From the IMG/VR virus record IMGVR_UViG_2690316068_000002: a stretch of DNA of 64,000 nucleotides; one strand, given 5' to 3'. A model generated the notes under the pieces. That model did not search any database. It was not told the DNA's origin and worked only from the letters and a program-made list of their open reading frames with translations. Shown one piece after another: positions 2,989-56,983 of the stretch (position 1 is its first letter; every line of letters begins with the position of its first letter). This DNA comes from a virus. Lineage: Duplodnaviria > Heunggongvirae > Uroviricota > Caudoviricetes. Both the position numbers and the translations under genes were made by a program.

Positions 2989-3543
2989 TTACACAATTTC
3001 AGAGGGTAATTTAAAAAATCCGTACTTATTACGTGCCTTAAAGAAGCATTGCATCATTAAGTTTGTGTCATATAAGGCACTATGTGCTTTAGTATGATCG
3101 TACATAAAGCCAAGAGAGAAGGCCAACTCTTCAAGGCGGGGACGTTTACCGTCTTCTGTGGCCCACAGGGAAAATATAGTGTCAATCAATGGGATGTCTG
3201 GAAGCGAAAAACCGTAACTTTTCAGCTCATGCCTAATAAACGGAATATCGAACGCTTCGCCGTTGTGGGCTATCCAAATATCGGAAGAAGAGAGATACGA
3301 AGCGACAGATGAAGCGTGATCGGCTAGTAACGGCTCGGCGGCTAAATCTTCAAGACTGATGCCGTGTACCGCTTGCGCTTTCGGATCGATACTGCGACGC
3401 GGGTTGAACCGCATTACAAAACTATCAACCATTGTCTGTGTCTCCAGTTCATAGCGGGTAATTGCGATTTCAATAATTTTATGACCAGCAAGGAAATCCA
3501 GTCCCGTAGACTCGATATCGATGCCTGCAACAATCGTTGTCAT
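2989..3543 (-). CDS. DnaQ-like 3'-5' exonuclease (DEDDh family, Pol III epsilon-like)
   Basis: Exo I motif VAGIDIESTGL near N-terminus; H-x4-D motif (HSALYD) near C-terminus; 184 aa. Confidence 0.75.
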   Translation of the reverse strand: MTTIVAGIDIESTGLDFLAGHKIIEIAITRYELETQTMVDSFVMRFNPRRSIDPKAQAVHGISLEDLAAEPLLADHASSVASYLSSSDIWIAHNGEAFDIPFIRHELKSYGFSLPDIPLIDTIFSLWATEDGKRPRLEELAFSLGFMYDHTKAHSALYDTNLMMQCFFKARNKYGFFKLPSEIV

Positions 3544-18084: not shown

Positions 18085-18186
18085 GTATGCTGTCAGCGGT
18101 AATTGATAGTCTGTCAGCGGTTCACCGTATGCTGCCAACTGTTTTTGGTATTCTGTCAGCGGCAAATCAAGTATGCTGTCAGCGGT
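18085..18186. repeat. iteron array upstream of repA (5 copies)
   Basis: GTATGCTGTCAGCGGT-like 16-mers at about 18085, 18107, 18127 (degenerate), 18148, 18171. Confidence 0.8.
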
Positions 18187-18206
18187 TGAATGACAAAGGT
18201 GTCCAC

Positions 18207-23694: not shown

Positions 23695-23967
23695 TCAGGC
23701 TCCTTTTGTTTCGTTGATTCGTTTTAAAGCGGCGGATTCATCGAATACAATCGCATCGTGGTTAAGGAGTCTGGATACACGAGCGAGGATTTTTACGACC
23801 TGCTCGCTGACTAATCCAAACTCGCGATCTGTCGCTTTCATTCCGGCAGCGCCTAGAATTGACGGCAGTGCGATGACAGCGTACTCACCGTGATAAAAGA
23901 CAATCTCTTTTGCCAGTTGGGCAGGGGTGGTTGTAGCGCCATTGATAATCGATTTAAGCATTAGCAA
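23695..23967 (-). CDS. hypothetical protein
   Basis: 90 aa ORF. Confidence 0.4.
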   Translation of the reverse strand: MLMLKSIINGATTTPAQLAKEIVFYHGEYAVIALPSILGAAGMKATDREFGLVSEQVVKILARVSRLLNHDAIVFDESAALKRINETKGA

Positions 23968-24905: not shown

Positions 24906-24924
24906 CGGTACATTCCTTCCAAAA

Positions 24925-24950
24925 AGTAAGGCGTCCGTAGACGCCTTACT
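24925..24950 (-). terminator. rho-independent terminator (AGGCGTC...GACGCCT family)
   Basis: TAAGGCGTC-tacg-GACGCCTTAC followed on minus strand by TTTTTGG. Confidence 0.55.
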
Positions 24951-24965
24951 GGTCACGTAATGGGA

Positions 24966-25994
24966 TTACAGAGAGTCCAGCTCTCTCAGTAGGTCATCCA
25001 GACCTTCATCTTCCGTCGCAGATGCGGTTGCTACAGATGTCGCTGCGACTGCTTCAGACTCTTTGACTGATACGGCAACGGCAGCGGAACTTGCCTCTGG
25101 TTTAAATTCAGTTTCAACGGCACGGAGGATTTCTTCATCAACCAGACTGGTTGGTTCAGAAGCCGGTGTGTGCGCGGTTGCTACAGCCGTCGCTCCTTCT
25201 GTATGACCAGTGACAGAGCCAAATCCAGGTAGTGCCGCAGCCGATGTTTTCGCGGTTGAGGAAATTGCTGGTGCAGATGCTGCGGCAGTTGGTGCAGCGA
25301 TGCCAATCAGACGACCCATAGTGCGAACTGTCGACAGAAGACGAGTTTCATCAGCCTGATTTGCGTATGCGATCAGATCATGCTGGGTGTTCCAGAATTT
25401 ATCTTCGATATCGCCTTTGTAGACTTTACGCTTAGGCGAGACGTCATATTTGGTATCGCGACCAGAGCCAGTACGTTTAATCAGGAATGCGTAGCCTTCC
25501 TCTTTGCTCAGTGGATTGCCGATATCATCAGCGATGTCTTCGGTGATTGCTTTGCAGATATCATCGAATACAGTAGACGGCAGCTCGATTAACTGGCATT
25601 TCTCAGCATCTGCGAAATCCTCACGAGCAGAAAGAATGCCGTTGACCAGGTAGCGAGGAGTGGCACGCATTTGACCGATGCGTTCTTCCATTGCTTTGTT
25701 ACCCTTGTGACGAGCGCGACCTTCCATAACCATTTCGCATAGCTGACAAGCGCGACCGTGAGTATGTTGCTCACAAATATAAGCGTTGGTTGCTTCTTTA
25801 CCTTCCTCGTTCTGATACTTAACGTAGTGCATACCGAAAGTCTGGAAGAACTTACCGTTTGGGTCGTCTTTATTCGGGAAGATGCGGATATAGTTGACGC
25901 CGTCTTTTAAGCGAGTCAGATCAACGTTGTTGCCACGTTTGGCGGCAATGTCTTCACGAGTTTTGTTAAGCAAATCAAGTAATGTCTTAGACAT
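24966..25994 (-). CDS. putative ssDNA-binding protein (gp32-like)
   Basis: Cys/His cluster CEQHTHGRACQLCE, Ala/Ser/Thr-rich linker and acidic C-terminal tail EDEGLDDLLRELDSL typical of SSBs. Confidence 0.5.
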   Translation of the reverse strand: MSKTLLDLLNKTREDIAAKRGNNVDLTRLKDGVNYIRIFPNKDDPNGKFFQTFGMHYVKYQNEEGKEATNAYICEQHTHGRACQLCEMVMEGRARHKGNKAMEERIGQMRATPRYLVNGILSAREDFADAEKCQLIELPSTVFDDICKAITEDIADDIGNPLSKEEGYAFLIKRTGSGRDTKYDVSPKRKVYKGDIEDKFWNTQHDLIAYANQADETRLLSTVRTMGRLIGIAAPTAAASAPAISSTAKTSAAALPGFGSVTGHTEGATAVATAHTPASEPTSLVDEEILRAVETEFKPEASSAAVAVSVKESEAVAATSVATASATEDEGLDDLLRELDSL

Positions 25995-26111: not shown

Positions 26112-26543
26112 TCAACGGGGAGTAATAAAGCGTTCAGAGCCTAATCGCTCTAATTCAACGATGGCCATCTTTGACGCCTGAACGATCATGTCTCGGCGAT
26201 GCGAAAAGGCGGCGACAGCATGTTTGTATATGTCTGCGATGTGCCGTGCTTCATCCAACTTCTGCCGTTTAGACAGATACTGTGGGTTTGTTTTAACCTT
26301 AGCGTCCAGTACAGACTCGTTGAACTTAATGCCGTTCATACTCAAGTTCTTACGCTCTGTGTCGTATAGCTTTGCTTCAACAGCTTCAAGGTTAAGTTTT
26401 GCCTCTGCGACATCTCGATCTGCCTGCGCTAGTTTTGACCCATACTCCATTAAAAGCCGTGGCTGTTTACGCCATACTTCCTCAAGGTTGTCGCGGTCGA
26501 ACTCCAGATCGGCCATGATTTTAGAAAAAATATCAGTGTTCAC
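26112..26543 (-). CDS. hypothetical protein
   Basis: 143 aa ORF. Confidence 0.5.
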   Translation of the reverse strand: MNTDIFSKIMADLEFDRDNLEEVWRKQPRLLMEYGSKLAQADRDVAEAKLNLEAVEAKLYDTERKNLSMNGIKFNESVLDAKVKTNPQYLSKRQKLDEARHIADIYKHAVAAFSHRRDMIVQASKMAIVELERLGSERFITPR

Positions 26544-27028: not shown

Positions 27029-27050
27029 GGCGGCATTAGCCGCCTTTTGC
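27029..27050 (+). terminator. hairpin with T-run between the two plus-strand genes
   Basis: AGGCGGC-atta-GCCGCCT-TTTG. Confidence 0.4.
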
Positions 27051-27082
27051 AGAAACTGTCCAACTATCTTCAAAGGAAAACT

Positions 27083-27646
27083 ATGGCGCTTTATAACTTC
27101 ACTCTGACGCTCTCAGGCGTATCGTATGAGACGGAAGGACTGGAAGACGCGCTGTACCAAAACGGCTGTGACGATGCGCTAATTTGCGCATATGGAAACT
27201 CCGTCTATGTAGAATTTGACCGCGAAGCACAATCACTTGATGCAGCTATCGCATCTGCGGTCGACAATATTGAATCAGCCGGTATCGGTGCAATTGTTGA
27301 ATCCGTCGACTCGGCTCTTGTGGGCTTAAGCGATATCGCGGAACTGACAGACCTGTCTCGCCAGGCAGTGGCGTTGCTCAAAGACGGTAAGCGCGGAAGC
27401 GGCGACTTCCCTTGCCCTGTACAACGCATAAAAGGCCAGTCTCCTCTCTGGGATTGGGCTGATGTGGCTGAATGGCTCATGAATAACGGACGACTTAAAG
27501 AGGGCGATCAAATTGTCCAAAATGCCCGAACTTTGAGTAAATGGAATCTGGCGCTTCGAAACAGCGTCTCGAAAGATTTCAACGAAATAGAGCAAATTGC
27601 GGAGAAACTGATTAAACGCCGCAAAGATATTGCGAAATGCGCATAA
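27083..27646 (+). CDS. hypothetical protein with C-terminal helix-turn-helix, possible HicB-like antitoxin
   Basis: ORF 27047..27646; ATG at 27083 preceded by AAGGAAA; HTH-like IAELTDLSRQAVALLKDG. Confidence 0.4.
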   Translation: MALYNFTLTLSGVSYETEGLEDALYQNGCDDALICAYGNSVYVEFDREAQSLDAAIASAVDNIESAGIGAIVESVDSALVGLSDIAELTDLSRQAVALLKDGKRGSGDFPCPVQRIKGQSPLWDWADVAEWLMNNGRLKEGDQIVQNARTLSKWNLALRNSVSKDFNEIEQIAEKLIKRRKDIAKCA

Positions 27647-27975
27647 TGATGCCCGCCAATTGGCGGGCATCTGTTCTCTGTAAAGGTGTCTGGCATCGTC
27701 TGGTTCGTTAACGTTTACTAAACCAATGGTGACAAAAATTAGTTATCTTTGAAAAATAAAGGTTGCATGAAAAGAAGGGGTATGCGTTAATAGCATCGTT
27801 GGTTTGCAAGACAGACCTTATGTAAGCAGTTTTAGTAAAGCAGTCTCAGTTCAGTGTTATCTTCTGATTTCCCTTCTTCGTGAGTCTCCTCCTTAAGTGC
27901 CTAAGTAAGTCCCAATCTATACAGATCAAATTCTCGCCGCACTATGTGGCTCACAAAATTAAGAAGGTAATATCT

Positions 27976-28191
27976 ATGTCTAATAAAATGACTGGTTTAG
28001 TAAAATGGTTTAACTCTGATAAAGGCTTTGGCTTTATTTCTCCTGCTGATGGCAGTAAAGATGTTTTTGTACATTTTTCGGCAATTCAGAGTAATAATTT
28101 CCGCACTTTGGAAGAAGGCCAGCAGGTCGAATTCTCTATCGAGAATGGGGCTAAAGGCCCAGCAGCAGCAAATGTCGTTGCTCTAAGTTGA
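27976..28191 (+). CDS. cold-shock protein (CspA family)
   Basis: [71 protein letters not shown] is near-identical in pattern to E. coli CspA/B/G; RNP1/RNP2 motifs present; AAGAAGG RBS; long leader. Confidence 0.9.
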
Positions 28192-28461: not shown

Positions 28462-28490
28462 TTTATAAACCCGCCAACAGGCGGGTTTTC
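28462..28490. terminator. bidirectional terminator
   Basis: CCCGCC-aaca-GGCGGG with T-rich tracts on both sides. Confidence 0.6.
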
Positions 28491-28494
28491 TTTA

Positions 28495-31400
28495 TTACTT
28501 ATTTATTGTCTCCGCGATATCAGCCAGAATGGCCTCCAGTCGCTCTCCTTCTTCCGGTCGGAAGTACAGGATATTCGGGTTAAATCCGTAGAAGACGGTT
28601 GCATCAAGCTCTGGGAAGTACTCCTTACGACCAATCAGATCTGATGGTTTACTCTTATTGTTAAATAGTGCGGTTGAACGACTACCACACGTCAAAATGT
28701 AGGTCGGACGCACCAGATTGATCTCTTCACGCATAAAGTCGGTGAACTGGCCGATCTCGTCTTTGGTGTAGTCTTTTTCTTTGTCTTTAACCTTCTTGCA
28801 AACGCCTGTGACATAGAGATCGCCCATGCGTAAATCTCCAGCCGTCAATAGCTTGGCCTTAAAGTCGTCGTATCCGTTCTCCATGAAGTAACCGGTTCGA
28901 GCATCATTGCCGTTCGCATTGTCCAGAATGATCATGATTTTCGGCTTAATACCAATGTTGGGGCGGATTAGTTCATCACCTAAGCCCATTTCAGCCGCCA
29001 TCCGTGTCATGAGCACGTTAATCTCAGCCGAACGTTTGGGGTTCATCTCAAACGGACGTGAGGCTTTAACTGCGTCTATGACAAGGTTTCCCATCAATTC
29101 AGCCTGGTCGCGTAGGCGCTCTGGATCAGTTGCTGGCAGACTACCTGGCTCGATGGATGCAAACGCCCCTACTTTTTGCAGCGATTCGCGCACTCGACTA
29201 TTACAGGCACGTTTCTCGACAGCTTCTTCGAATTGCGCCAGTGACTCGAATTTGCCGCCAACTTTTTCTCGCGCTCTCATGATGGCTTGGCAGCCATTCT
29301 CAGAACACCCCTTCACAGCAGAGAAGGGCGCATACAGCACCTGGCTGCCATCTTCAAGCGTGCGGATCTCGATTCGGTTAGATGACACGTTAACGTCTGG
29401 TGGCAATACGCGAATACCATAGGTCAGCGCATCTTTAACCAGCCCCTGGTGTTTATCTTCGCCAAGAATAGTGAGAGCAGCAGCGAAAAACTCTGCGGGA
29501 TAATGAGTTTTCAACCACATAGATTGATAACTGATTAAGGAGTAGGCAACAGAGTGTGATTTATTGAACTGGTAGGCACCATTTTTTTCGAATGCGGTCC
29601 AGATCTCCTTCGCTTTCATCTCTGATAGCCCTGGATGTGACGCTGTAACGCGTACTGCGTTTATAGGTAGTTTTGCGCCGTGCTCAAGTGCCTCTTCGAC
29701 AGTTTTCAGAGTTCCGTCTTCGCATTTAAAATGTTCCGCACGGTGAATGCGCTGTGTAGTGCCATCTTCCAGCTCAACGTCTATCCAGCCAGCTTGAGCC
29801 TGAACGATGAACTTCTCGCCCATGCTCTTCATTTTTTCCATGTTCTTCTTACCGATTGCGGAACGCACACCGTCAGCTTCAGCCATTGTGAAGCCGGCAA
29901 GCAATCGAGTCGCGTTCATCGTCTGTTCCTGATAGAGAATCACGCCATTTGTTTCCGCGGTAAGTTCATCAAGAACGGGGTGTAATGATTCCGGCGTCAT
30001 AAAGCCTTTGGCGACAGAAACATAGTCGTCCAACATGCCGGATTGGATCGGGCCAGGTCGGAAGAGTGCGGTCGTGGCGACAACGGTTTTAAAGCTCATT
30101 GGCTCAATGCCACCGCCTAGATCTTTAAGCAGCTTGCGCATGGGGCCGGACTCCAGCTGGAATACGCCCTGTGTATACCCTGCAGCAAAACCATCCAGCA
30201 CCTTGCGATCTTCAAGAGAAATGGCATCAAGATTGATATCTTCACCTGTGTTCTCTTTTATGTAGCGTTTTGCACTATCGAGCAAATCGAGAGTTGCCAG
30301 GCCAAGCACGTCCAGCTTAATTAGGCCCATAGCCTCGCAGTAACGCTTGTCAAATGCGATACAACGCGCGTCACCACGGCGCTCAACCGGTGTACGTTCT
30401 GTCAGAGGAACACCTGCTACAATCATCCCTGCCGCATGTCTACCAAAGCCACGCATAAGGCTTTGTAACTTGCAGGCTGCATTGAATGCATCAGGATATT
30501 TTGTTGCGTATTTGTCGAGACTTGCCAGTTGTTCGCGCAGCTCTTCCAATGGAAGGCTATCATCCTCGACGTTCTTCAGTTCTTTTGATACCGCCATATC
30601 TGCGGACTCCACACCATAAATACGAGCGGTGTCACGTAGTGCAGAGGCTGCGCCCAGGTAGGTGAAGTTCGGAATGCCTGCAACGTAATCTTCGCCGTAG
30701 CGTTCATTCAGATACTCGATCACCTCATGGCGACGTGCCTGGCTGAAGTCCAAGTCCGCATCCGGCAAGTCGAGACGCTCAGGGTTGATGAAACGCTCAA
30801 ACAGAAGACCGTGACGGATTGGGTCGACGTTGGTTATGCCTATGCACCACGCCACCAGAGAACCGGCAGAGGAACCACGACCAGGCCCGACAGGAATGCC
30901 AGTTTCACGGCTGTGATTCATCAGATCGCGTACCATCAGGAAGTAACCACAAAATCCCAGGCGAGTCAGCGTGTTCATTTCGTACTTTAGCCGCTCAACA
31001 TAAACCCTGTTCTCAGAAGCAGGTGGTGTGTATCCAAACTCTTTTGTGGTAAGACGTTTACGCAGCCCTGCAACAGCCAGTTTCATCAGCGTTGCAGGTT
31101 CGTCGTCTGCCATCTTGGGCAGTGCTGGTGGCAATTCATGCCAGCGCCATGTGCAGGCATCGATAATGGAGTCCTGCGTTGTTGAGGCCATTGCAGCTGT
31201 TACCGGCACATCCATGCGAACGGAGAAGGCTTTAAGCGCCTCAAGGAGATGGCGACGACCATTGATGGCGTTATCTCGCTGGTGGGGGATACGCAGACGA
31301 TGCGGCTGGTCGATTTTTATGTTGTTCGTAACCATGTGCGCAATGTCTTTAATGTCTGCATCGTCGATCGATTCGTAATAAGCGGGATAGAACGCTACTG

Positions 31401-32013
31401 GCTCTATTTTCAGTGCGCTGGCTACTTTCATCGCTCGGACGTTAATCTGGTCGTAGAATGGGGTAGGGTGCGGATAAACCACGCTATAGAAGTTGTCTTT
31501 CCCGCCCGCTGTAATCAGTGAGCTTATGATTTTTGCAAAATCGTTGCGTTGGAACACGCTACCGATGTCGGAAGTGAGCAGGATGATGTTGCCTTTGGCA
31601 TATGTAGAAACCAACTGTTCGAGCGAGAGACGCGGTACAAAGTAGAACTGTTCTCGTGTGTTGGCCACCGTCATTAGTTCGCAGATGTCGCGATATCCTT
31701 GCTCATTTTTAATTAGAGCGGTAAACGAGTAGTTACGTCCCCGCTCTAATGATTCCATACATCTCATAGATTCTTTAGCAAGTTTAGCCCGGTGCTCGTA
31801 TGTGGGATCATCAACGATATTTAGTTTCACACCACAAATAACCGCCATGTCGTCACCAGCGGCACGTTGTAGTGGAATAACGCTCGCAATATTCATGCTA
31901 TCTGCTGAAATTACAGCGGTGTAGCCAGCTTCTCTGGCAATCTTCACCGCGTTTTCTGCTTTTAGAGCCGACTCCCCAAGTGAGAAGTCAGTTCGAACCA
32001 TCAGTGCCTTCAT
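28495..32013 (-). CDS. dnaE: DNA polymerase III alpha-like replicative polymerase (DnaE family)
   Basis: 1172 aa; block GYFLMVRDLMNHSRETGIPVGPGRGSSAGSLVAWCIGITNVDPIRHGLLFERFINPER matches the DnaE palm-domain signature; N-terminal PHP-like region. Confidence 0.85.
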   Translation of the reverse strand: MKALMVRTDFSLGESALKAENAVKIAREAGYTAVISADSMNIASVIPLQRAAGDDMAVICGVKLNIVDDPTYEHRAKLAKESMRCMESLERGRNYSFTALIKNEQGYRDICELMTVANTREQFYFVPRLSLEQLVSTYAKGNIILLTSDIGSVFQRNDFAKIISSLITAGGKDNFYSVVYPHPTPFYDQINVRAMKVASALKIEPVAFYPAYYESIDDADIKDIAHMVTNNIKIDQPHRLRIPHQRDNAINGRRHLLEALKAFSVRMDVPVTAAMASTTQDSIIDACTWRWHELPPALPKMADDEPATLMKLAVAGLRKRLTTKEFGYTPPASENRVYVERLKYEMNTLTRLGFCGYFLMVRDLMNHSRETGIPVGPGRGSSAGSLVAWCIGITNVDPIRHGLLFERFINPERLDLPDADLDFSQARRHEVIEYLNERYGEDYVAGIPNFTYLGAASALRDTARIYGVESADMAVSKELKNVEDDSLPLEELREQLASLDKYATKYPDAFNAACKLQSLMRGFGRHAAGMIVAGVPLTERTPVERRGDARCIAFDKRYCEAMGLIKLDVLGLATLDLLDSAKRYIKENTGEDINLDAISLEDRKVLDGFAAGYTQGVFQLESGPMRKLLKDLGGGIEPMSFKTVVATTALFRPGPIQSGMLDDYVSVAKGFMTPESLHPVLDELTAETNGVILYQEQTMNATRLLAGFTMAEADGVRSAIGKKNMEKMKSMGEKFIVQAQAGWIDVELEDGTTQRIHRAEHFKCEDGTLKTVEEALEHGAKLPINAVRVTASHPGLSEMKAKEIWTAFEKNGAYQFNKSHSVAYSLISYQSMWLKTHYPAEFFAAALTILGEDKHQGLVKDALTYGIRVLPPDVNVSSNRIEIRTLEDGSQVLYAPFSAVKGCSENGCQAIMRAREKVGGKFESLAQFEEAVEKRACNSRVRESLQKVGAFASIEPGSLPATDPERLRDQAELMGNLVIDAVKASRPFEMNPKRSAEINVLMTRMAAEMGLGDELIRPNIGIKPKIMIILDNANGNDARTGYFMENGYDDFKAKLLTAGDLRMGDLYVTGVCKKVKDKEKDYTKDEIGQFTDFMREEINLVRPTYILTCGSRSTALFNNKSKPSDLIGRKEYFPELDATVFYGFNPNILYFRPEEGERLEAILADIAETINK

Positions 32014-32197
32014 GTGTTTTTACCTTTCTGGTTTTTTTGATTTTGTCATTTGGGAAGCCTACGAACTTCCCATGCATCGAAATCGCAACTTCTTTTGCTG
32101 ATTGGTGACAATCGGGCTTGTCTGGACACACCAGACAAGCCTTACCAGTTTCAGAAGCAGCGATAAGAGAGCCGAAACATCCTTTACGCACGATCAA
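31988..32197 (-). CDS. small Cys-rich hypothetical protein
   Basis: 69 aa; CLVCPDKPDC motif; ATGA overlap with upstream AAA ATPase gene. Confidence 0.35.
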   Translation of the reverse strand: MIVRKGCFGSLIAASETGKACLVCPDKPDCHQSAKEVAISMHGKFVGFPNDKIKKTRKVKTHEGTDGSN

Positions 32198-33429
32198 CCA
32201 AATATTTTTTGAACAACTTCACGAGCCGCTTGTGCAGAAGCTGAAGGGAGTTTGTTAATGAAAGAACGCTCAATACCTGTCACAAAGTCGCCTCGCATCA
32301 TTCCAATCTTGGCCGACAACAAAAGTTCACGAGGGCCAATTGGCTGACTGATAAGGTGTTCTTCGTATCCATCGCGAACGATACCGGCAAACTTAACCAT
32401 CTTTTCTGCGTATTCATCCACGATACCGGCATTTATCAACATGTTGATCTCTGCCTCTTTGCTCATGTATTTCACATTCGAAACGATGCCAAAACGCGAA
32501 AAGTTCGCGGCGTTCTGGATGTTTGTACCCTGGTACAAGCCGGTTTCATCACCAGATCCGTTCGTGTTGCCAGTGCCAATGAAAGCAAACCGTTCATGCG
32601 GAGTAATGCGACGCCATTCTGGAGTCGCCTCTTTGATGACCAACGCTTCACCTTCCAGCACTGGCTGATACACGCCAAGAATCTGTGGAAACGCAAAGTC
32701 GTATTCATCCGCGAGGTAAACCCAGCCATGCTTCATTGCGAGCGCAAGCAAGCCAGGCTCGAAATACGTAGAGCCATCACGCGCCAGAATTTGTCCCGTA
32801 ACATGAGCCTCTTCCATTGATGCTGTATGTTGGGCACGGATTAACGGACGATTGAGCAAAGCACATAGTTGTGTAGGCAATGAAGATTTGCCTGTTCCTG
32901 CATGACCCCACAAATAGCCAGGTATGCCAAGTTCAAGCATCATGAAAATGTCTTTGATCAGTTCGAAGTCGCCATATACGTATCCCTTCTTCACTTCTGG
33001 AACGAACTCTGGAAACGGCGTATTGACGTTGACGCTAACCATGAGCGGCGTCCCACGTTTTGTTCCGAGTTCTTTCACCGTTACATTTAGCAGTTCGTGA
33101 GCTGCGACCAGATCTGTCTTGTACTCAACTGTGCCTGTGTAGCCTGGGCTACTGGTCACGCCAGATGATTTGGCCATTTCGCTTTTTTGCTCGGCACGTT
33201 TAGCTTGAATTGCATCAAGTGCCTTTTTCGATAGCGTTGGCTCATCTGGAAACTGTGTTGTGTACATTTTCAGTACGGTGTCAGGATCGGCATCTTTTAC
33301 TGACTCAGGAATGCCCTCGCAATTACCATTGGCAACATGGGACTTAAAATAGTGAAATGATTTTCCGCACCACTTGCAAACAAGGTAATCAGAAGGATTT
33401 TTTTCATTTTGCAGTGCAGTAGTAGTCAT
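32194..33429 (-). CDS. MoxR/CbbQ-type AAA+ ATPase (CobS-like)
   Basis: Walker A GHAGTGKSS and Walker B VYLADEYD in MoxR-like arrangement. Confidence 0.7.
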   Translation of the reverse strand: MTTTALQNEKNPSDYLVCKWCGKSFHYFKSHVANGNCEGIPESVKDADPDTVLKMYTTQFPDEPTLSKKALDAIQAKRAEQKSEMAKSSGVTSSPGYTGTVEYKTDLVAAHELLNVTVKELGTKRGTPLMVSVNVNTPFPEFVPEVKKGYVYGDFELIKDIFMMLELGIPGYLWGHAGTGKSSLPTQLCALLNRPLIRAQHTASMEEAHVTGQILARDGSTYFEPGLLALAMKHGWVYLADEYDFAFPQILGVYQPVLEGEALVIKEATPEWRRITPHERFAFIGTGNTNGSGDETGLYQGTNIQNAANFSRFGIVSNVKYMSKEAEINMLINAGIVDEYAEKMVKFAGIVRDGYEEHLISQPIGPRELLLSAKIGMMRGDFVTGIERSFINKLPSASAQAAREVVQKIFG

Positions 33430-33524
33430 GCGTTTTTCCTTTGTTTTCTAATGAGCGTTCAACTTCTTATATAAATATATCATTATCTATCGTAAGTGGT
33501 TACTTATCATTAAGGCTGTTTTAT

Positions 33525-35633
33525 TCACTTCAAAATGATACGAGATAGTTCAGTAACTACAGATGAACCAAGACTATCAACGCTCGTTACCAGGGCATGA
33601 TTTGAGTAAAATCTCTCCGGTGCGTCAGTCATGATGCCAATTGCCATCAAATCAATGTCAGTCTGCGTTTCAATTTGCTTCGCAACCGAACGCAAATGAG
33701 CGTCAAAACCTCTCCCAACAGCCCACGGCTCGCCATCGCTCAGAACAAGCATGATCTTCCTGTCCTCCATGCGACCGGAAAATAACGATGCAAGGCTGGC
33801 TATGCTTTCACCATCCACGTTATTAAGAAGTGGGAATGTGTAGCCTACGCACCCCATACGTGAGCGAACTTCGCGAGAATTTACCTTTTCATTCCAATTT
33901 TTGATGATAGGTAGCATTAAAGATTCAAAGCGAGAGAACTCATACTTGACAGCCTTAAGTTCTCCTGCCGCCATATGACTACCAAATGTAGTGAAGCCGG
34001 TGATAATGTTGGGAACATTTATTCGATCAAGGGCATCGGCGATGGTATATGCACTTGCAAGAGCCAATTGTATCGTTATACCCCTCATTGAACCTGATAA
34101 ATCAATCACTTGTTGAACACAGGCGTTAACGGCTTTAGATTCTTCTTTTTTACGAAACACGCGATCATCATTCATTGCTAATCTGTAGATACTAGAACCA
34201 TGAATGCGCCCCCGACGCTGGCCCGGTATAAACTGAACTCTGTTTCTGCTTGCTATTGCTCGCTCCAGGTCTTTTGCCAGCGTCGACGAAACACCTGACG
34301 AAAGATGCTTTTCAATATATTTGTCGAAGAGCTGGTTGCCTTCAGGAACGATGCGATAGCGGCTGATTGGACATCCTCCTAAATCAATATCGGAGAATGT
34401 TTTAATAAGCCGTTTGATATGGGCTTCTGCCTGATCAATCGAGCCGATGAAGTCGTATGAGCGATTGTATGGCCTGTATTCGCTTTTCGAGCTTTCTGTT
34501 AACTCGCTTTTAATCGTTTCGGATAGAGCATCTTCTGTCATGCCTCCGACTTCATCTTCTATGCTATCCAGCTCCTCTAAAGCCTCTTCCAGACTCATTT
34601 TTGACGGAGTTGGAATATCTGAAGAGCCGTCTTCTGTCGTTTTTCTTTTTTCGTGGTCAGCGGTTAATGATTCTGACGCCGCGTTATCAGAAGCATCAGA
34701 ATCTGATACCTCTTTATCATTTTCTGTATCATCGAATATTGTTTCTGATGATTCAGAATTATCTGAATCATCACTGTCGTTATTATCATGTTTGTGCTTA
34801 CTGTGTGATTCTGATTTGATAGATTTGTGATTATCTAACGATGAGGGTGTCTCATGATCTTCGTTGTCTTCATTGTTTTCTCCAGAGGCATCCGTCTGGT
34901 CAGCGTCTGAAGGATCGGAAGTTTTTCCCGGAGCTGACTCCTTACCTTTGCTTTCACTTTCAGTGTCTTTGAGGATCTTAGCTATGGTCGCAGCCACCTT
35001 TACACAATCCTCGGTGCAAGACATGTTACGCACGGCCACATCGATACCATGTTCTTTTAATAATGAAATTGGTTTCTCAATGACAGGCCAGTATTCATCC
35101 ATGAAATCTACGAACGGTGCTTGGCCATCCCAGGCTCTTACAACCGGACAGAGAAAGAAGTTTAGAAAAAGCGCGCGCTGATCTTTGCCACAATAAGCAA
35201 TAGCCTCTGAAGCCTTTGGTTTAAAGACTTTTTCGATTATAAGGCGCTGAGTTGCCATCAGATTACGTCTTGTTCCGTTAAAGACCTGACCCATTTTTCG
35301 CTCGATGAACACGTCTTCTAAGGCATTCCATAGCGACCAGGAAGGAACGCGTCCTTTTTCTCTCATTTTGTTGGACACACGAATATCGGTAAACAAAATG
35401 TGAGCAACCTCATGATCGAGAAATCCGCGCACAGCATTCATCAATGCCGGTGTTGCGTTATCCGGGATTGATGGGATGTTTACGAGAATTGGCTCTCCAT
35501 CATCGTTATAGCGTACATAAGCGTCGTCCCCTCGTTCTGCAACAGGGATGTTTTTACCTGAAAGGAGAGCGACTACTCGTTTTACACTGTCACGGAAGTC
35601 CTGAACCTCTTTGATGGAACGTTTTTTAGACAT
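33525..35633 (-). CDS. von Willebrand factor A domain protein (CobT-like)
   Basis: C-terminal vWA with VIDLSGSMRG motif; central Ser/Asp/Glu-rich low-complexity acidic region. Confidence 0.65.
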   Translation of the reverse strand: MSKKRSIKEVQDFRDSVKRVVALLSGKNIPVAERGDDAYVRYNDDGEPILVNIPSIPDNATPALMNAVRGFLDHEVAHILFTDIRVSNKMREKGRVPSWSLWNALEDVFIERKMGQVFNGTRRNLMATQRLIIEKVFKPKASEAIAYCGKDQRALFLNFFLCPVVRAWDGQAPFVDFMDEYWPVIEKPISLLKEHGIDVAVRNMSCTEDCVKVAATIAKILKDTESESKGKESAPGKTSDPSDADQTDASGENNEDNEDHETPSSLDNHKSIKSESHSKHKHDNNDSDDSDNSESSETIFDDTENDKEVSDSDASDNAASESLTADHEKRKTTEDGSSDIPTPSKMSLEEALEELDSIEDEVGGMTEDALSETIKSELTESSKSEYRPYNRSYDFIGSIDQAEAHIKRLIKTFSDIDLGGCPISRYRIVPEGNQLFDKYIEKHLSSGVSSTLAKDLERAIASRNRVQFIPGQRRGRIHGSSIYRLAMNDDRVFRKKEESKAVNACVQQVIDLSGSMRGITIQLALASAYTIADALDRINVPNIITGFTTFGSHMAAGELKAVKYEFSRFESLMLPIIKNWNEKVNSREVRSRMGCVGYTFPLLNNVDGESIASLASLFSGRMEDRKIMLVLSDGEPWAVGRGFDAHLRSVAKQIETQTDIDLMAIGIMTDAPERFYSNHALVTSVDSLGSSVVTELSRIILK

Positions 35634-44731: not shown

Positions 44732-45913
44732 TTATGATAGAGCCTTAATGCCCAAAACCTTGCTTTGCAACTCCAACTGTTTGGTATACGGTTTTGCCCG
44801 ATAATAGGCTTTGATAATTTGTTCTGGCGTTGCACCGCCCGGGTCGAGTCCTTCCTCACCCAAACACGCAACTTTGACATTAAGACCGATACTGGTCAGT
44901 CGCCTGGCTGCGGCCATAGTGTTGCGTATAGCTTGCTTTTCACTATCCCACATCATGATCACATTACGTAACCCACGCGCCTTGAGCGTCAGGAACGCGC
45001 CTAACTGATCTTCTGCATCCTGAGTGGTGTTACCAGATAGATGCATCCCGAACGTTCCTATTGGTTCCACGTAATCACGTAATGTTTCTTCGTCAAAAAT
45101 AGCTCGTTTAACCCCCATAACATCGAACGCCCCCTCACAGACAACTACAGTCTGTTTGCCGACTGCATTATGGCCGTTGTAGAGAAACTTACCTGAAGCT
45201 GGAAGTTGCATAGGAAAGAGGTAGCGGCGTTCTGCTGTACCGGTAATGTCTCGTCCCTGAAATGTCTTCATTACCCCATCCAGATCGTAAACCGGTATCA
45301 GTATTCGCATATCGAATATCTGTCCTTTAACCTGATCTGTATACGGATCTACATAAGCGTGCTTGCCTTCGACGCAGTATCGTAGGTCAAAATACTTTGC
45401 CATTTCAGGTGATATGTTTCGTTCAACCAGATAGTCTGGAAGACGGCCATCTATAGGAAGTTCGTAATGACGAGGGAGTGCAAGTGGTCCCTCTAACTCG
45501 ACTGTGCTTGCAAGCACTATCTCTTCTTTCTTTGGTGCCCACCCCTGGGAAAGAAGGGCGTTCTGCACATATTCCTCGAACTGTCGTCGTGATTTGCCGC
45601 TGTAGTGCTTGAGGAAGACCAGCTTATTGAACTGAATCTCTTCGGGATGATCACCAGCAAAGCATTTGCCGACGCCACTGGTCAGATTGAAATATACCTT
45701 CCAGTTGGAGCTGCCGCATACCGGACATTCCTTGATATTCACTTCACGACCGCGAGCACTCACGCCTCCACGTCGATAAACGATACCTTCAGTATCCAAC
45801 CATTGTTCAAAATCTAATTCGGCAATTAGCTCTTTCAGCTCGCTCACGATAATTCCACTTTTAACAGGCAATATTGTGACCAACCTAAATGTTGATATAA
45901 CATAAAGGCTCAT
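44732..45913 (-). CDS. DNA primase (zinc finger plus TOPRIM)
   Basis: ORF 44732..45985 trimmed to ATG at 45913 preceded by conserved AACCACAAAAGAAAAACAC leader; CPVCGSS...C zinc ribbon; TOPRIM VVVCEGAFD. Confidence 0.7.
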   Translation of the reverse strand: MSLYVISTFRLVTILPVKSGIIVSELKELIAELDFEQWLDTEGIVYRRGGVSARGREVNIKECPVCGSSNWKVYFNLTSGVGKCFAGDHPEEIQFNKLVFLKHYSGKSRRQFEEYVQNALLSQGWAPKKEEIVLASTVELEGPLALPRHYELPIDGRLPDYLVERNISPEMAKYFDLRYCVEGKHAYVDPYTDQVKGQIFDMRILIPVYDLDGVMKTFQGRDITGTAERRYLFPMQLPASGKFLYNGHNAVGKQTVVVCEGAFDVMGVKRAIFDEETLRDYVEPIGTFGMHLSGNTTQDAEDQLGAFLTLKARGLRNVIMMWDSEKQAIRNTMAAARRLTSIGLNVKVACLGEEGLDPGGATPEQIIKAYYRAKPYTKQLELQSKVLGIKALS

Positions 45914-45961
45914 GTGTTTTTCTTTTGTGGTTTGGCAAAAGAAAAGTTGTTTCACAAATGA

Positions 45962-45994
45962 ATCAAGCGTGGAGGTGTTCTCCACGCTTATTTT
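45962..45994. terminator. hairpin terminator candidate
   Basis: AAGCGTGGAG-gtgtt-CTCCACGCTT followed by ATTTTTT on plus strand. Confidence 0.45.
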
Positions 45995-47335
45995 TTAGGT
46001 AACGTCTAAGATTCGCTCAATGAAACGCATTTGTTCGAGGTTTTGTTTAACGCGAATGCTGATCCCACCCTGCTGGTTACGTGAACCAGCAAAGTAGAGA
46101 CGAGCCTCTCCTTTCGCTTCTTCTTCTTCGGTTTTGTTGATCGTTATTACCAGGTCAGCAATACGTACTTTTTCGATGTTATCGGCGGCGTGCATCATTG
46201 TGGCAACTTCTGACGCGCCACCTTCACGGTTTGTCTGCGATGCCGTGATCCCAGCAACGTTATGCTTGTCATAAAGAGCACGTAAATCGGTGTAGATACT
46301 ACGAATGTTGGCGCGATCATCACGAAGGTCATAACTGGCACGCATCAAATCTGCGTAGTCGACAACAACCATGTCAGGCACCATGCCGTTGGCTTTCATG
46401 CTGTTAAGCATACGGTCCAGATCTGCCGGTGACATACTTCCTGACGGACGCTCAACAACCCACAAACTACCAATCCCCTTAGAGGCTCCCAACTCTGCCA
46501 ACTTACGATGAACTTCATCGCGCCGTTCCACCAACTTGGACATTTCCGTCTCCGACAATCTTGCATCAAAACGGTCGGACAAAATGTTGGTGTGAACCTC
46601 CAGCGAGAGATACAGAACATTGTAGCCAGCAAGCGTTGCGTTTATGGAAAACTCACCCATTGCGGTCGATTTACCGGATTTAGCGAACCCCATGAAGAGC
46701 ACCATTTCACGCTTCGCCCAGCCTTTTTGGTACAGCAACCTATCGAGCAGAGGGAGTCCAGTTGTAATGCTGTTTGGCACATACTCCTCTGAGGCCTCAT
46801 ATTCACGCGCTTTCAGTCGCTCACTTGCTGAGGTGTAGTAGTCATAGATTCCGGTTGCTTCGTTCGAGCCTATCTGCTGAACCTTGGCCATGATTGCCAT
46901 CGCCCCCTGAAAGTCGCCCTTCTCTTTCAGTTCAGCAGCCTTAATCAGAGCATCATCAAACGCTACGCTTTTTGCGAAGGTTGATACCTGGTCAACCATG
47001 TACGAGGTATCGGACAATTTTTCTGCAAGGATGCGCTTAAACGCAGCAACAACATCGGCGAATAGTTCCTCACGGATAGTCTTATCGCGTTTCGCACGCT
47101 TAAGCATATCCAGAATTGCAGATGAAGAGGGCGCGCTCTTGTACATACGGTAATAGCCCGAAACCATATTAACCAATATGGCATTGGCCGCATTGGCAAA
47201 TTGGTTAGGCACAACCAGATCTCCCGCACGAGTAAGAAACTCGTGATCACGACAAAAATATGCCGTCAGTCTGTTCTGGAAATCTTCATCAAACTCTTCG
47301 GACAGCCCGCGTCCTGTATGGCAAAGTTCGGTCAT
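45995..47335 (-). CDS. DnaB-like replicative helicase
   Basis: Walker A GFAKSGKST in RecA-like C-terminal domain; 446 aa; adjacent to primase. Confidence 0.75.
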   Translation of the reverse strand: MTELCHTGRGLSEEFDEDFQNRLTAYFCRDHEFLTRAGDLVVPNQFANAANAILVNMVSGYYRMYKSAPSSSAILDMLKRAKRDKTIREELFADVVAAFKRILAEKLSDTSYMVDQVSTFAKSVAFDDALIKAAELKEKGDFQGAMAIMAKVQQIGSNEATGIYDYYTSASERLKAREYEASEEYVPNSITTGLPLLDRLLYQKGWAKREMVLFMGFAKSGKSTAMGEFSINATLAGYNVLYLSLEVHTNILSDRFDARLSETEMSKLVERRDEVHRKLAELGASKGIGSLWVVERPSGSMSPADLDRMLNSMKANGMVPDMVVVDYADLMRASYDLRDDRANIRSIYTDLRALYDKHNVAGITASQTNREGGASEVATMMHAADNIEKVRIADLVITINKTEEEEAKGEARLYFAGSRNQQGGISIRVKQNLEQMRFIERILDVT

Positions 47336-56939: not shown

Positions 56940-56983
56940 GTTGAATATGCTCCTTGATTTGGCGGGCTATCCTTGCCCGCCAT

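What the first reader, a model, noticed from the sequence alone, without database searches (positions are those of the whole stretch)
28495..32013. Bacterial-type replicase set: DnaE-family polymerase plus separate DnaQ-like proofreading exonuclease
The 1172-aa polymerase carries the DnaE palm signature, and a stand-alone DEDDh exonuclease lies at 2989-3543. Together with DnaB-like helicase, primase, ligase, RNase H, SSB-like protein and RecA, the element has a largely host-independent replisome of bacterial rather than family-A or family-B phage type. This rules out a T5-like identity, which the NrdAB/ThyA/DHFR/FEN cluster otherwise suggests.
Basis: partly seen in the sequence, partly recalled or inferred. 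Interest (0 to 1): 0.45.

Follow-up and report, generated by a model that had tools for sequence, protein, structure and literature searches.

The report
Phage-plasmid DnaE replicase and proofreader
This is the intact, already-annotated bacterial-type (DnaE) DNA polymerase of a common SSU5/pHCM2-like phage-plasmid of E. coli, together with a small epsilon-like proofreading nuclease; it is ordinary for this element family, and its one odd feature, a uracil-glycosylase-like tail in place of the usual C-terminal domains, was noted in 2014 but has never been tested.

Summary
ORF 28495-32013 (-) encodes a 1172-aa DnaE-type polymerase with intact palm aspartates (D418/D420/D568). ORF 2989-3543 (-) encodes a 184-aa DEDDh exonuclease whose closest solved relative is E. 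coli epsilon.

The window is 100% identical to E. coli plasmid CP057251.1, an SSU5/pHCM2-type phage-plasmid. The gene occurs in 781 plasmid records and is annotated dnaE.

No clamp or clamp loader was detected in the ORFs scanned here, and none is annotated in the 110-kb element or in the replication regions examined in distant relatives, so the replisome is not host-independent. The SSB is T4 gp32-type and the ligase is ATP-dependent.

New detail:
- The PHP metal site is destroyed across the whole family, so proofreading must come in trans.
- OB and tau-binding domains are replaced by a family-4-UDG-fold domain lacking the canonical His, Asn and Fe-S residues. This architecture was noted in one sentence in 2014.
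- A conserved Q-x-E-L-[LM] motif follows the HhH domain, so host beta-clamp use is likely.
- Polymerase and exonuclease co-occur in exactly the same 31 phage genomes.

Verdict: already known, low-to-moderate interest.

The parts
28495..32013 (-). dnaE-type DNA polymerase gene, 1172 aa, uninterrupted
31144..32013 (-). PHP domain (aa 1-290). The fold is retained but the metal ligands are replaced (M5, R7, S39, K63, P210, Y212), so PHP exonuclease activity is predicted to be lost.
29794..31116 (-). Palm, thumb and fingers core (aa 300-740) with catalytic D418 (nt 30760-30762), D420 (30754-30756) and D568 (30310-30312)
29635..29793 (-). 53-aa beta-rich insert (aa 741-793). It is absent from E. coli and Taq DnaE and from the nickie, RHEph10 and BUCTxx99 polymerases. 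It marks the site where homing-endonuclease ORFs split the gene in Klebsiella and Acinetobacter relatives.
29149..29634 (-). End of the fingers domain plus the (HhH)2 / beta-binding domain (aa 794-955)
29080..29118 (-). Conserved motif R966-L-R-D-Q-A-E-L-M-G-N-L-V978 (Q970-M974 = nt 29092-29106), a candidate internal beta-clamp-binding motif
28498..29061 (-). C-terminal UDG-fold domain (aa 985-1172) replacing the OB fold and tau-binding domain. Motif A reads D1031-N-A, motif B reads N1145-P1146, and there are no Fe-S cysteines.
2989..3543 (-). Stand-alone epsilon-like DEDDh 3'-5' exonuclease, 184 aa (D9, E11, D99, H154, D159), with a conserved C-terminal G-F-F-K-L-P motif at nt 3004-3021
28467..28488 (.). 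GC-rich hairpin 7 nt beyond the dnaE stop codon, a likely terminator shared with the convergent cspG-like gene
32194..35633 (-). CobT-like (VWA) and CobS-like (MoxR AAA+) genes directly upstream in the same packed operon. Together with the 69-aa ORF 31988-32197, which overlaps the dnaE start by 26 nt, this arrangement is conserved next to dnaE in all relatives examined. Their role is unknown.
45995..47335 (-). DnaB-like replicative helicase
44732..45985 (-). DnaG/Toprim-type primase
24966..25994 (-). T4 gp32-type single-strand DNA-binding protein

Best explanation
The gene encodes the sole DNA polymerase of an SSU5/pHCM2-type phage-plasmid. It is a catalytically competent C-family (DnaE-like) enzyme and the core of the element's own replication module.

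Shown:
- The palm active site and the fingers and HhH domains are intact.
- The PHP domain keeps its fold but has lost essentially all metal ligands, in every family member.
- The OB fold and tau-binding C-terminal domain are replaced by a family-4-UDG-fold domain.
- The element encodes one epsilon-like DEDDh exonuclease with an intact active site.
- No clamp or clamp loader was detected in this element or in the relatives' regions examined.

Inferred:
- Because the PHP site is dead, 3'-5' proofreading is supplied in trans by the 184-aa exonuclease.
- Processivity comes from the host beta clamp, loaded by the host clamp loader. The polymerase would be tethered through the conserved Q-x-E-L-[LM] motif just after the HhH domain, the place where E. 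coli alpha carries QADMF.
- The exonuclease lacks epsilon's alpha-binding tail. It may be held in the complex by its own conserved C-terminal G-[FL]-F-x-L-P peptide, which lies where epsilon has its clamp-binding QTSMAF.
- The UDG-fold domain most likely acts as a non-canonical DNA-binding or base-sensing module taking the place of the OB fold, rather than as a classical uracil glycosylase.

Overall, the replisome is semi-autonomous, not host-independent.
For: - Domain architecture and active site. Family-wide invariance of LPDADLDF and GLxKxDxLGL. Fold match to Taq, Mtb and E. coli alpha.
- Sole polymerase: no other polymerase appears in the PGAP annotation of the full plasmid or in the 49-kb replication region of nickie that was examined.
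- Dead PHP: the HxH, H, E and DxH ligand positions are M/R, S, K and P..Y here and non-His in all 12 aligned family members down to 37% identity.
- Exonuclease: DEDDh residues conserved. Best PDB hit is epsilon at 2.8e-11. Best NCBIfam hit is DnaQ.
- Co-occurrence: the 31 phage records with a full-coverage HhH+UDG polymerase part are exactly the 31 records with strong exonuclease hits, spanning phages of Enterobacteria, Pseudomonas, Rhizobium, Stenotrophomonas and Xanthomonas. The apparent exception, pMT1, has a dnaE broken by IS100.
- No clamp or clamp loader. The one 'clamp loader' PHROG hit (ORF 4034-4678) is a nucleotide kinase.
- Clamp motif: in 88 representatives, Q is 86%, L 76% and [LM] 80% conserved. 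The motif is an island of conservation in a variable linker. RHEph10 QLELL and the Acinetobacter form QMRLL fit the canonical Q-phi-x-[LM]-[FL] consensus of PMC11139829.
- UDG fold: AF2 pLDDT 91; Foldseek gives 4zbx at 1.5e-11 with TM 0.75, plus UdgX. NCBIfam UDG_fam4 scores 1.9e-8.
Against: - No physical or biochemical evidence exists for any interaction.
- The exonuclease gene lies 25 kb from dnaE and its product lacks the epsilon C-terminal segment that binds the PHP domain.
- All 31 phages share the entire ~40-kb module in the same order. Co-occurrence therefore reflects common descent as much as functional coupling.
- The window's own motif QAELM has Met, not Phe or Leu, at the last position. 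MAFFT does not align it exactly to E. coli QADMF (offset of 5 residues). AF2 places it at the end of a short helix with pLDDT about 85, not in a disordered loop.
- Several conserved proteins of unknown function (247-269 aa and 429 aa) could be an unrecognised processivity factor.
- The UDG-like pocket is under constraint (Asp 85%, Pro 77%, T 98%, K 90%, [NST]-P 97%), so a catalytic role cannot be excluded.
Confidence: 0.7

Rival explanations
1. Clamp-independent replicase. The UDG-fold domain is itself the processivity device, a DNA-tracking module tethered to the polymerase. This would be functionally analogous to vaccinia D4 (a UDG) acting with A20 as the processivity factor of polymerase E9 (the analogy is from my own knowledge). 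The host clamp would then not be needed.
For: - No clamp or clamp loader was found in any of the family members examined.
- The domain is always at the C-terminus of a DnaE or of its split C-part, in 137 clusters out of 1.84 billion representatives.
- The canonical catalytic His, the uracil-reading Asn and the Fe-S cysteines are lost, while the conserved Y/T/K/K positions remain.
- It replaces the DNA-binding OB fold.
Against: - A clamp-binding-like motif is conserved right next to the domain, which is hard to explain if the clamp is irrelevant.
- No DNA-binding data exist.
- The D4 analogy is a resemblance recalled from memory, not a tested homology of function.
Confidence: 0.2
2. The UDG-fold domain is an active, non-canonical DNA glycosylase or base sensor. 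It would couple removal or detection of uracil or another aberrant base to replication, comparable to read-ahead uracil sensing by archaeal B-family polymerases.
For: - An acidic residue (D1031) is 85% conserved at the position of the family-4 motif-A Glu and is followed by a conserved Pro.
- Motif B is [N/S/T]-P, reminiscent of MUG-type 'NPS' (a comparison from my own knowledge).
- The element invests heavily in dTTP supply: ThyA, DHFR, NrdAB, a MazG-like pyrophosphohydrolase and a dNMP kinase.
- NCBI names the split C-parts 'uracil-DNA glycosylase'.
Against: - The motif-B His is present in only about 1% of members.
- The uracil-specific Asn is always replaced by G, S, A or T.
- The uracil-stacking Phe is not conserved.
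- The four Fe-S cysteines are absent.
- TIGR00758 scores 34 bits against a cut-off of 125.
Confidence: 0.15
3. The 184-aa DEDDh protein is not the polymerase's proofreader. It would be an independent nuclease (for example in nucleotide salvage, RNA or primer trimming, or counter-defence), and the polymerase would either replicate without proofreading or borrow host epsilon.
For: - It lacks epsilon's alpha-binding tail.
- It lies 25 kb from dnaE, inside the nucleotide-metabolism cluster.
- It fails the NCBIfam DnaQ cut-offs (73 bits against 196; 55.7 against 71.5).
- Co-occurrence can be explained by shared ancestry of the whole module.
Against: - The best structural and sequence relatives are epsilon and the PolC proofreading domain.
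- The PHP site is dead in every family member, so a trans proofreader is expected (background in PMC3919608).
- The phyletic match is exact, 31 of 31, whereas about 880 other DnaE-encoding phages lack it.
- A conserved C-terminal peptide sits at the position of epsilon's clamp-binding motif.
Confidence: 0.15
4. The polymerase is a degenerate relic or an accessory error-prone (DnaE2-like) enzyme rather than the replicase.
For: - Timinskas et al. saw it only as an 'additional' unclassified copy (DnaEX) in host genomes.
- It fails the DnaE1 equivalog cut-off (676 bits against 1002).
- pMT1 carries a broken copy.
Against: - The catalytic motifs are invariant over a family diverged to 37% identity.
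- It is the only polymerase in the element and in the examined region of the Nickievirus phage nickie.
- It is embedded in a helicase-primase-SSB module.
- The DnaE2 model scores lower (400 bits) than the DnaE1 model (676 bits), and no imuA or imuB gene is present.
Confidence: 0.03

Closest known systems
DnaE-UDG variant of C-family polymerases ('DnaEX') described by Timinskas et al. 2014 (PMC3919608) in Yersinia pestis and Salmonella enterica plasmids
   Same: It is the same protein family. The window protein is 93% identical to the SSU5 enzyme, and the broken pMT1 CO92 copy is 90-94% identical over its two pieces. The architecture is identical: PHP-Pol3-(HhH)2 followed by a PF03167-type UDG domain instead of OB and CTD.
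   Different: Nothing differs in kind. That paper gave one sentence on the architecture. It did not recognise the phage-plasmid and phage origin, the dead PHP site, the partner exonuclease, the clamp-motif conservation or the split forms.
E. coli DNA polymerase III core (alpha-epsilon, with the beta clamp)
   Same: - C-family palm, fingers and HhH domains, with the same catalytic aspartates.
- A PHP domain without exonuclease chemistry.
- A separate DEDDh proofreader whose closest solved relative is epsilon.
- A Q-x-[DE]-[LM]-hydrophobic motif after the HhH domain.
   Different: - No OB fold, no tau-binding CTD and no C-terminal clamp motif.
- The exonuclease has no alpha-binding C-terminal segment and no theta partner.
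- No tau, gamma, delta or beta genes.
- It fails the DnaE1 and DnaQ equivalog cut-offs.
- It carries an extra 53-aa insert in the fingers region.
Family-4 uracil-DNA glycosylases and UdgX (PDB 4zbx, 1ui0, 6ioa)
   Same: Same alpha/beta fold (TM about 0.75, E about 1e-11), the same order of motifs, and a conserved T...K motif and motif-A Pro.
   Different: Motif A has Asp in place of the Glu of GE(A/G)PG. The motif-B His is replaced by Asn, Ser or Thr. The uracil-reading Asn is replaced by a small residue. There is no 4Fe-4S cysteine set. The domain occurs almost always fused or tethered to DnaE.
Vaccinia virus D4 (UDG)-A20-E9 polymerase holoenzyme (own knowledge)
   Same: A UDG-fold protein physically attached to a viral replicative polymerase in a genome that encodes no ring clamp.
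   Different: That system uses a different polymerase family (B) and a catalytically active family-1 UDG joined through a bridging protein rather than fused. The analogy is functional only and untested here.
Other phage-encoded DnaE-like polymerases (actinobacteriophages, Bacillus phages)
   Same: They are C-family polymerases encoded by phages. About 880 phage records match the fingers/HhH part.
   Different: Those matches cover only about 50% of the C-part. They lack the UDG-fold domain, and those phages lack a homologue of this exonuclease at E<=1e-5.
Genes split by free-standing homing endonucleases in phages, and the cyanobacterial split-intein DnaE (own knowledge)
   Same: In Klebsiella and Acinetobacter relatives the dnaE is divided into two ORFs by an HNH/NUMOD4 endonuclease gene, about 25 codons upstream of the conserved FNKSH motif. 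That motif is where the cyanobacterial DnaE split intein sits.
   Different: The window's gene is uninterrupted. No intein motifs were detected in the insert. Reassembly of the split halves would have to be non-covalent.

Membership tests
C-family DNA polymerase, DnaE type (Pol III alpha) | PHP - Pol3 (palm/thumb/fingers) - (HhH)2 core architecture | tested here: met
   Pfam PF02811, PF07733, PF17657 and PF14579 are all above their cut-offs. NCBIfam TIGR00594 superfamily scores 629 bits against a 434 cut-off. The AF2 model matches 2hpi, 7pu7 and 2hnh.
C-family DNA polymerase, DnaE type (Pol III alpha) | Three catalytic palm aspartates (E. coli D401, D403, D555) | tested here: met
   D418, D420 and D568, invariant across the family.
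DnaE1 (main bacterial replicase) | C-terminal OB fold and tau-binding CTD; score above the equivalog cut-off | tested here: not met
   There is no OB or CTD; a UDG-fold domain takes their place. NF004226 scores 676 bits against a 1002 cut-off.
DnaE2 (error-prone ImuC) | Score above the NF004225 cut-off; imuA/imuB neighbours | tested here: not met
   400 bits against a 939 cut-off. No imuA or imuB appears in the annotation.
PHP-domain proofreading exonuclease (as in Taq and M. tuberculosis DnaE1) | Nine metal-ligand residues (HxH, D, H, E, H, C, DxH) | tested here: not met
   The ligand positions are M5, R7, (E14), S39, K63, non-His, non-Cys, P210 and Y212. They are equally degenerate in all 12 aligned family members.
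DnaQ / epsilon proofreading subunit | DEDDh catalytic motifs ExoI, ExoII and ExoIII-epsilon | tested here: met
   D9, E11, D99, H154 and D159 align to epsilon D12, E14, D103, H162 and D167. Pfam RNase_T scores 4.9e-23.
DnaQ / epsilon proofreading subunit | Score above the NCBIfam equivalog or domain cut-offs | tested here: not met
   NF004316 scores 73 bits against 196, and TIGR00573 scores 55.7 against 71.5.
DnaQ / epsilon proofreading subunit | C-terminal segment that binds the alpha PHP domain (epsilon residues ~190-243) | tested here: not met
   The protein ends at residue 184. All 110 homologues are 178-204 aa or shorter fragments, apart from one weak 254-aa outlier.
DnaQ / epsilon proofreading subunit | Physical association with the polymerase and a contribution to fidelity | not testable with these tools
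   Only the phyletic co-occurrence (31 of 31 phage records) is available.
Family-4 uracil-DNA glycosylase | UDG alpha/beta fold | tested here: met
   Foldseek: 4zbx 1.5e-11 with TM 0.75; also 1ui1 and UdgX 6ioa.
Family-4 uracil-DNA glycosylase | Motif A GE(A/G)PG, motif B HP(S/A), uracil-reading Asn, four Cys of the 4Fe-4S cluster, score above the TIGR00758 cut-off | tested here: not met
   The residues are L-D-N-A-N, N-P-N and T-G. The cysteines are not conserved. The score is 34 bits against a 125 cut-off.
Family-4 uracil-DNA glycosylase | Uracil excision activity | not testable with these tools
   This needs a biochemical assay.
Beta-clamp ligand (canonical CBM Q-phi-x-[L/M]-[F/L], PMC11139829) | Motif match in an accessible position after the HhH domain | tested here: inconclusive
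   The window has QAELM, with Met at the last position. RHEph10 (QLELL) and the Acinetobacter form (QMRLL) are canonical. The motif is conserved in 76-86% of 88 representatives and forms an island of conservation. AF2 places it at the end of a helix followed by coil. Binding was not tested.
SSU5/pHCM2-type phage-plasmid (SSU5 supergroup, PMC7969092) | Nucleotide identity and synteny with SSU5-group phages and plasmids | tested here: met
   100% to CP057251.1, 96% to PhiR41_1 and CMS-2020a, and 85% to SSU5 over the gene. The gene order is the same.

The most novel reading that the evidence does not exclude
The DnaE-UDG polymerase, the tail-less epsilon-like exonuclease and the host beta dimer could form a minimal three-part replicase. 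In it the clamp, rather than a PHP-epsilon contact, would bridge the polymerase (through its internal Q-x-E-L-[LM] motif) and the proofreader (through its C-terminal G-F-F-x-L-P peptide). The UDG-fold domain would be a new kind of polymerase accessory: a DNA-tracking or aberrant-base-sensing module that replaces the OB fold and frees the enzyme from the tau/clamp-loader scaffold. The invariably adjacent MoxR-AAA+/VWA (CobS/CobT-like) pair might serve as an assembly or loading factor.
Probability: 0.2. Interest if true: 0.6.

Novelty: already known. Interest (0 to 1): 0.3.

Why it matters
SSU5-type phage-plasmids are very common in clinical Enterobacteriaceae. This polymerase gene alone matched 781 plasmid records, and the literature reports that such elements can carry resistance genes, so knowing which host factors their replication needs is useful for understanding host range and copy-number control.

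The DnaE-UDG polymerase is a natural experiment in rebuilding a bacterial replicase. It has a dead PHP site, no OB fold, no tau-binding domain, a glycosylase fold in their place, and a minimal proofreader without the usual tether.

Nothing here overturns current knowledge. The value of this check is threefold:
- It corrects the claim of a host-independent replisome.
- It identifies the element.
- It defines a clear and inexpensive set of biochemical tests for an uncharacterised polymerase variant that is widespread in phages of Proteobacteria.

Tried and rejected
Rejected: the catalytic residues are present and invariant.
- **ORF 4034-4678 as a clamp loader** (phrog_168, 3.8e-11). Rejected: its P-loop is at the extreme N-terminus; the Pfam, NCBIfam and PDB hits are nucleotide kinases; and the syntenic nickie gene is annotated as thymidylate kinase.
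- **Clamp or clamp-loader search.** Pfam, PHROGs and NCBIfam on about 45 ORFs of the window, plus the deposited annotations of five related genomes, found nothing. Single-sequence methods could miss a very divergent clamp.
- **pMT1 as a counter-example to polymerase-exonuclease co-occurrence.** Rejected: its dnaE is broken by IS100.
- **The 53-aa insert as an intein remnant.** There is no Pfam support; the only hit was a chance one at E=0.026. AF2 predicts a small structured beta domain instead.
- **Exact alignment of QAELM to E. coli QADMF.** MAFFT places it 5 residues off, so positional equivalence is argued from domain order and conservation only.
- **Literature.** Searches for 'DnaE' with 'UDG-like' or 'UDG domain' found no experimental work. 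Aravind & Koonin 2000 (PMC15025) is not held in the library. The phage-plasmid survey PMC7969092 does not mention the polymerase.

Full report
**1. The observation**

The minus-strand ORF 28495-32013 is a single 1172-aa frame. Pfam finds, in order, PHP (aa 6-175), DNA_pol3_alpha (309-571, 9.8e-74), the finger domain (574-740) and HHH_6 (866-955). PHROG 405 'DNA polymerase' matches over its full length. The best solved relatives are Taq, M. tuberculosis and E. coli Pol III alpha.

The palm aspartates align to D418, D420 and D568. A full-length AlphaFold2 model (pLDDT 85.8, pTM 0.74) superposes on those structures (2hpi at 1.3e-56; TM 0.81 normalised to E. coli 2hnh).

ORF 2989-3543 (-) is a 184-aa RNase_T-family DEDDh exonuclease. 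All five catalytic residues of epsilon are conserved: D9, E11, D99, H154 and D159. Its closest solved relative is E. coli epsilon (1j53, 2.8e-11), followed by the PolC exonuclease domain and TREX1.

**2. What the element is**

The gene is 100% identical to dnaE of E. coli plasmid pRHB31-C19_2 (CP057251.1, 110,652 bp). It is 96% identical to phages PhiR41_1 and CMS-2020a, 93% to Cyrano and 85% to Salmonella phage SSU5.

It occurs in 781 plasmid records: Klebsiella 312, Escherichia 221, Enterobacter 91, Yersinia 63 and Salmonella 49. This is the SSU5/pHCM2 supergroup of phage-plasmids described by Pfeifer et al. (PMC7969092). Direct identity to known elements is the stronger argument for it.

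**3. Replisome inventory**

Present in the window:
- DnaB-like helicase (45995-47335)
- DnaG/Toprim primase (44732-45985)
- ATP-dependent ligase (42018-43340)
- T4 gp32-type SSB (24966-25994, Pfam gp32 1.7e-66)
- FEN (23961-24956)
- RecA (22619-23692)
- Rep3-type initiator (18087-19301)
- SbcC/SbcD-like nuclease, a RuvC-like resolvase, NrdAB, ThyA, DHFR, a MazG-like pyrophosphohydrolase and a nucleotide kinase

RNase HI is truncated by the window edge.

No sliding clamp or clamp loader was found by Pfam, PHROGs or NCBIfam, nor in the PGAP annotation of the whole plasmid. The one 'clamp loader' PHROG hit (ORF 4034-4678) is a nucleotide kinase. Its syntenic counterpart in phage nickie is annotated as thymidylate kinase.

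'Largely host-independent' is therefore an overstatement. 'Bacterial type' applies to the polymerase, exonuclease, helicase and primase, but not to the SSB or the ligase.

**4. PHP integrity**

I compared the protein with M. tuberculosis DnaE1, whose PHP domain is an active proofreader, and with E. coli alpha. The ligand positions read as follows:
- HxH becomes M5/R7.
- The His of 'TDHGN' becomes S39.
- The Glu becomes K63.
- 'NDxH' becomes P210..Y212.

The same degeneration is present in all 12 aligned family members down to 37% identity, so it is ancestral to the family. By the reasoning laid out for bacterial DnaEs in Timinskas et al. (PMC3919608), such a polymerase must obtain proofreading from a separate exonuclease.

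**5. The C-terminus**

Residues from about 956 to 1172 have no Pfam hit in the full-length scan. On its own, this region gives weak hits only to family-4 UDGs (Pfam UDG 0.006; PDB 4zbx, 1l9g, 1vk2, 1ui0). NCBIfam UDG_fam4 scores 1.9e-8 but lies far below its cut-off.

An AF2 model of aa 985-1172 (pLDDT 91) matches family-4 UDGs and UdgX at E about 1e-11 and TM about 0.75. So the OB fold and the tau-binding domain of DnaE are replaced by a UDG-fold domain.

This architecture is already in the literature. Timinskas et al. [quoted passage not shown] RHEph10's GenBank record also notes 'uracil-DNA glycosylase-like' on its polymerase. I found no experimental study of it.

**6. Is the UDG-like domain an enzyme?**

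I profiled 88 diverse representatives. They come from an exhaustive search of 1.84 billion cluster representatives, which found 137 clusters with this domain, always at the C-terminal end. Forty-one of those proteins are at least 1000 aa and 31 are 350-460 aa.
- Motif A carries a conserved Asp (85%) followed by x-Pro (77%) where family 4 has G-E-A-P-G.
- A Y-x-T...K...K motif is 84-98% conserved.
- The uracil-reading Asn is always G, S, A or T.
- Motif B is [N/S/T]-P, with His in only about 1%.
- The stacking Phe and the four Fe-S cysteines are not conserved.

The pocket is constrained but is not that of a canonical uracil glycosylase. I favour a DNA-binding or base-sensing role that substitutes for the OB fold. 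Non-canonical glycosylase activity cannot be excluded.

**7. Clamp dependence**

Just after the HhH domain, in the region where E. coli alpha carries its internal clamp-binding motif QADMF, the family has a conserved motif: R-x-[KR]-D-Q-x-E-L-[LM]-[PG]-G. Q is 86% conserved, L 76% and [LM] 80%. It is an island of 2.3-4.0 bits at most positions in a linker otherwise around 1-2 bits.

RHEph10 (QLELL) and the Acinetobacter form (QMRLL) fit the canonical Q-phi-x-[L/M]-[F/L] consensus (PMC11139829). The window's QAELM is near-canonical. AF2 places it at the end of a short helix followed by 18 residues of coil.

Together with the absence of any clamp gene, this makes use of the host beta clamp the most economical model. 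Two caveats apply: MAFFT does not align the motif exactly to QADMF, and no binding data exist.

**8. Is the exonuclease the partner?**

In the phage collection, 31 records have a full-coverage match to the HhH+UDG part of the polymerase: 12 from the SSU5 group, 6 Pseudomonas nickie-like, 10 Rhizobium RHEph10-like, 2 Stenotrophomonas, and Xanthomonas JGB6. These are exactly the 31 records with strong matches to the exonuclease. The roughly 880 other phages with DnaE-like genes lack it.

Host distributions among plasmids also track each other. The apparent exception, Y. pestis pMT1, has a dnaE broken at about codon 1010 by an IS100 rearrangement and has lost the whole replication module.

The main caveat is that all these genomes share the same ~40-kb module in the same order, so the co-occurrence is not phylogenetically independent.

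The exonuclease family is uniformly 178-204 aa and lacks epsilon's alpha-binding tail. It does have a conserved C-terminal G-[FL]-F-[KQ]-L-P peptide at the position of epsilon's clamp-binding QTSMAF. This raises the untested idea that the clamp bridges polymerase and proofreader.

**9. Classification**

The polymerase passes the Pol III alpha superfamily model (629 bits against 434). It fails every DnaE1, DnaE2, DnaE3 and PolC equivalog cut-off, with DnaE1 the best at 676 bits against 1002 and DnaE2 at 400 against 939. That agrees with the 'DnaEX' label in the 2014 survey. It is the only polymerase in the element, and the catalytic motifs are under strong purifying selection. It is therefore the replicase, not a relic or a translesion enzyme.

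**10. Verdict**

The finding is real but already known. The gene is annotated dnaE in hundreds of records, and the exonuclease is annotated as 'DNA polymerase III epsilon subunit' in several related phages. The unusual domain architecture was published in 2014.

This check adds the following:
- The replisome is not clamp-autonomous.
- The PHP site is dead family-wide.
- A clamp-binding-like motif is conserved.
- The polymerase-exonuclease pair defines a wide clade of ~105-122-kb phages and phage-plasmids.
- The gene is repeatedly split by homing endonucleases at one site.

Interest is low to moderate. The function of the UDG-fold domain is a genuine, cheaply testable open question.

Noticed in passing
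L005 2918-7170; L011 3990-8233; corresponds to window ~29635-29665: In a large Klebsiella cluster (1,459 member sequences) and in Acinetobacter ~110-kb plasmids, dnaE is split into a ~785-aa N-part and a ~389-421-aa C-part. A free-standing NUMOD4/HNH homing-endonuclease ORF is inserted at the same site, about 25 codons upstream of the conserved FNKSH motif. The window and SSU5 carry the uninterrupted form.
   Followed up: partly
window 29635-29793 (pol aa 741-793): A 53-aa insert is present only in the SSU5 supergroup and the Acinetobacter group, the two lineages in which I saw split forms. It is absent from nickie, RHEph10, BUCTxx99 and bacterial DnaE. AF2 predicts a structured beta-rich mini-domain (pLDDT 81-90). 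Its last strand (aa 786-793) belongs to the separate C-part in the split enzymes, so it may hold the two halves together by strand complementation.
   Followed up: partly
window 32194-35633 and 31988-32197; L008 7982-11383; L009 1-3336; L010 311-3487; L011 1-2523: A CobT-like (VWA) and CobS-like (MoxR AAA+) gene pair sits directly upstream of dnaE in every family member examined. In the window it is in a tightly packed operon: cobS and the 69-aa Cys-rich ORF overlap by 4 nt, and that ORF and dnaE overlap by 26 nt. The 'porphyrin/cobalamin biosynthesis' labels look like annotation by homology only. A role linked to replication is possible but untested.
   Followed up: partly
window 3004-3021 (exo aa 175-180): The exonuclease family has a conserved C-terminal G-[FL]-F-[KQ]-L-P peptide. 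It is aligned with epsilon's beta-clamp-binding QTSMAF but lacks the usual Gln.
   Followed up: partly
L012/L013 (Y. pestis CO92 pMT1): 93170-96208 and 56781-57272: The pMT1 dnaE is a disrupted relic. Codons 1-1011 and 1009-1172 lie 39 kb apart on opposite strands next to IS100 copies. The exonuclease, helicase, primase and nucleotide-metabolism genes are absent.
   Followed up: yes
window 4034-4678: This 214-aa P-loop protein hits the PHROG 'clamp loader of DNA polymerase' (3.8e-11) but is a nucleotide (dTMP/dCMP-type) kinase by Pfam, NCBIfam, PDB and synteny. It is a trap for automated annotation.
   Followed up: yes
window 22619-23692; L006 12339-13176; L001 6862-9201; L011 11517-13715: RecA is intein-free here (357 aa). 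In L006 it carries an intein with a LAGLIDADG endonuclease (Pfam). It is enlarged to 779 aa in PhiR41_1 and 732 aa in the Acinetobacter plasmid, presumably for the same reason. The module is a hotspot for selfish endonuclease elements.
   Followed up: no
proteins P0116, P0122, P0137; L006 6001-7176: Odd chimeric ORFs occur in relatives: DnaE N-terminal parts fused to RecA domains, and an HNH endonuclease fused to a C-part that lacks the HhH domain. They are probably deletion derivatives in defective elements.
   Followed up: no
window 24966-25994, 26112-26543, 22619-23692: The SSB is T4 gp32-type (PGAP calls it 'regulator'). It lies between a weak UvsY-like hit (phrog_231, 1.9e-4) and, beyond the FEN gene, RecA. 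This suggests a T4-style recombination-mediator set inside an otherwise bacterial-looking replisome.
   Followed up: no
window 27047-28191 and 28467-28488: Directly downstream of dnaE, on the opposite strand, are an excisionase-like DNA-binding gene and a cspG-like cold-shock gene. PhiR41_1 has no genes in this slot, so it appears to be variable cargo. A strong GC-rich hairpin separates the convergent genes.
   Followed up: no
L003 14572-17863 (CP057251.1 76571-79862, outside the window): The same plasmid carries a full-length methionyl-tRNA synthetase (metG) and apbC, which is unusual cargo for a phage-plasmid.
   Followed up: no
Only its first 81 codons are in the window.
   Followed up: yes
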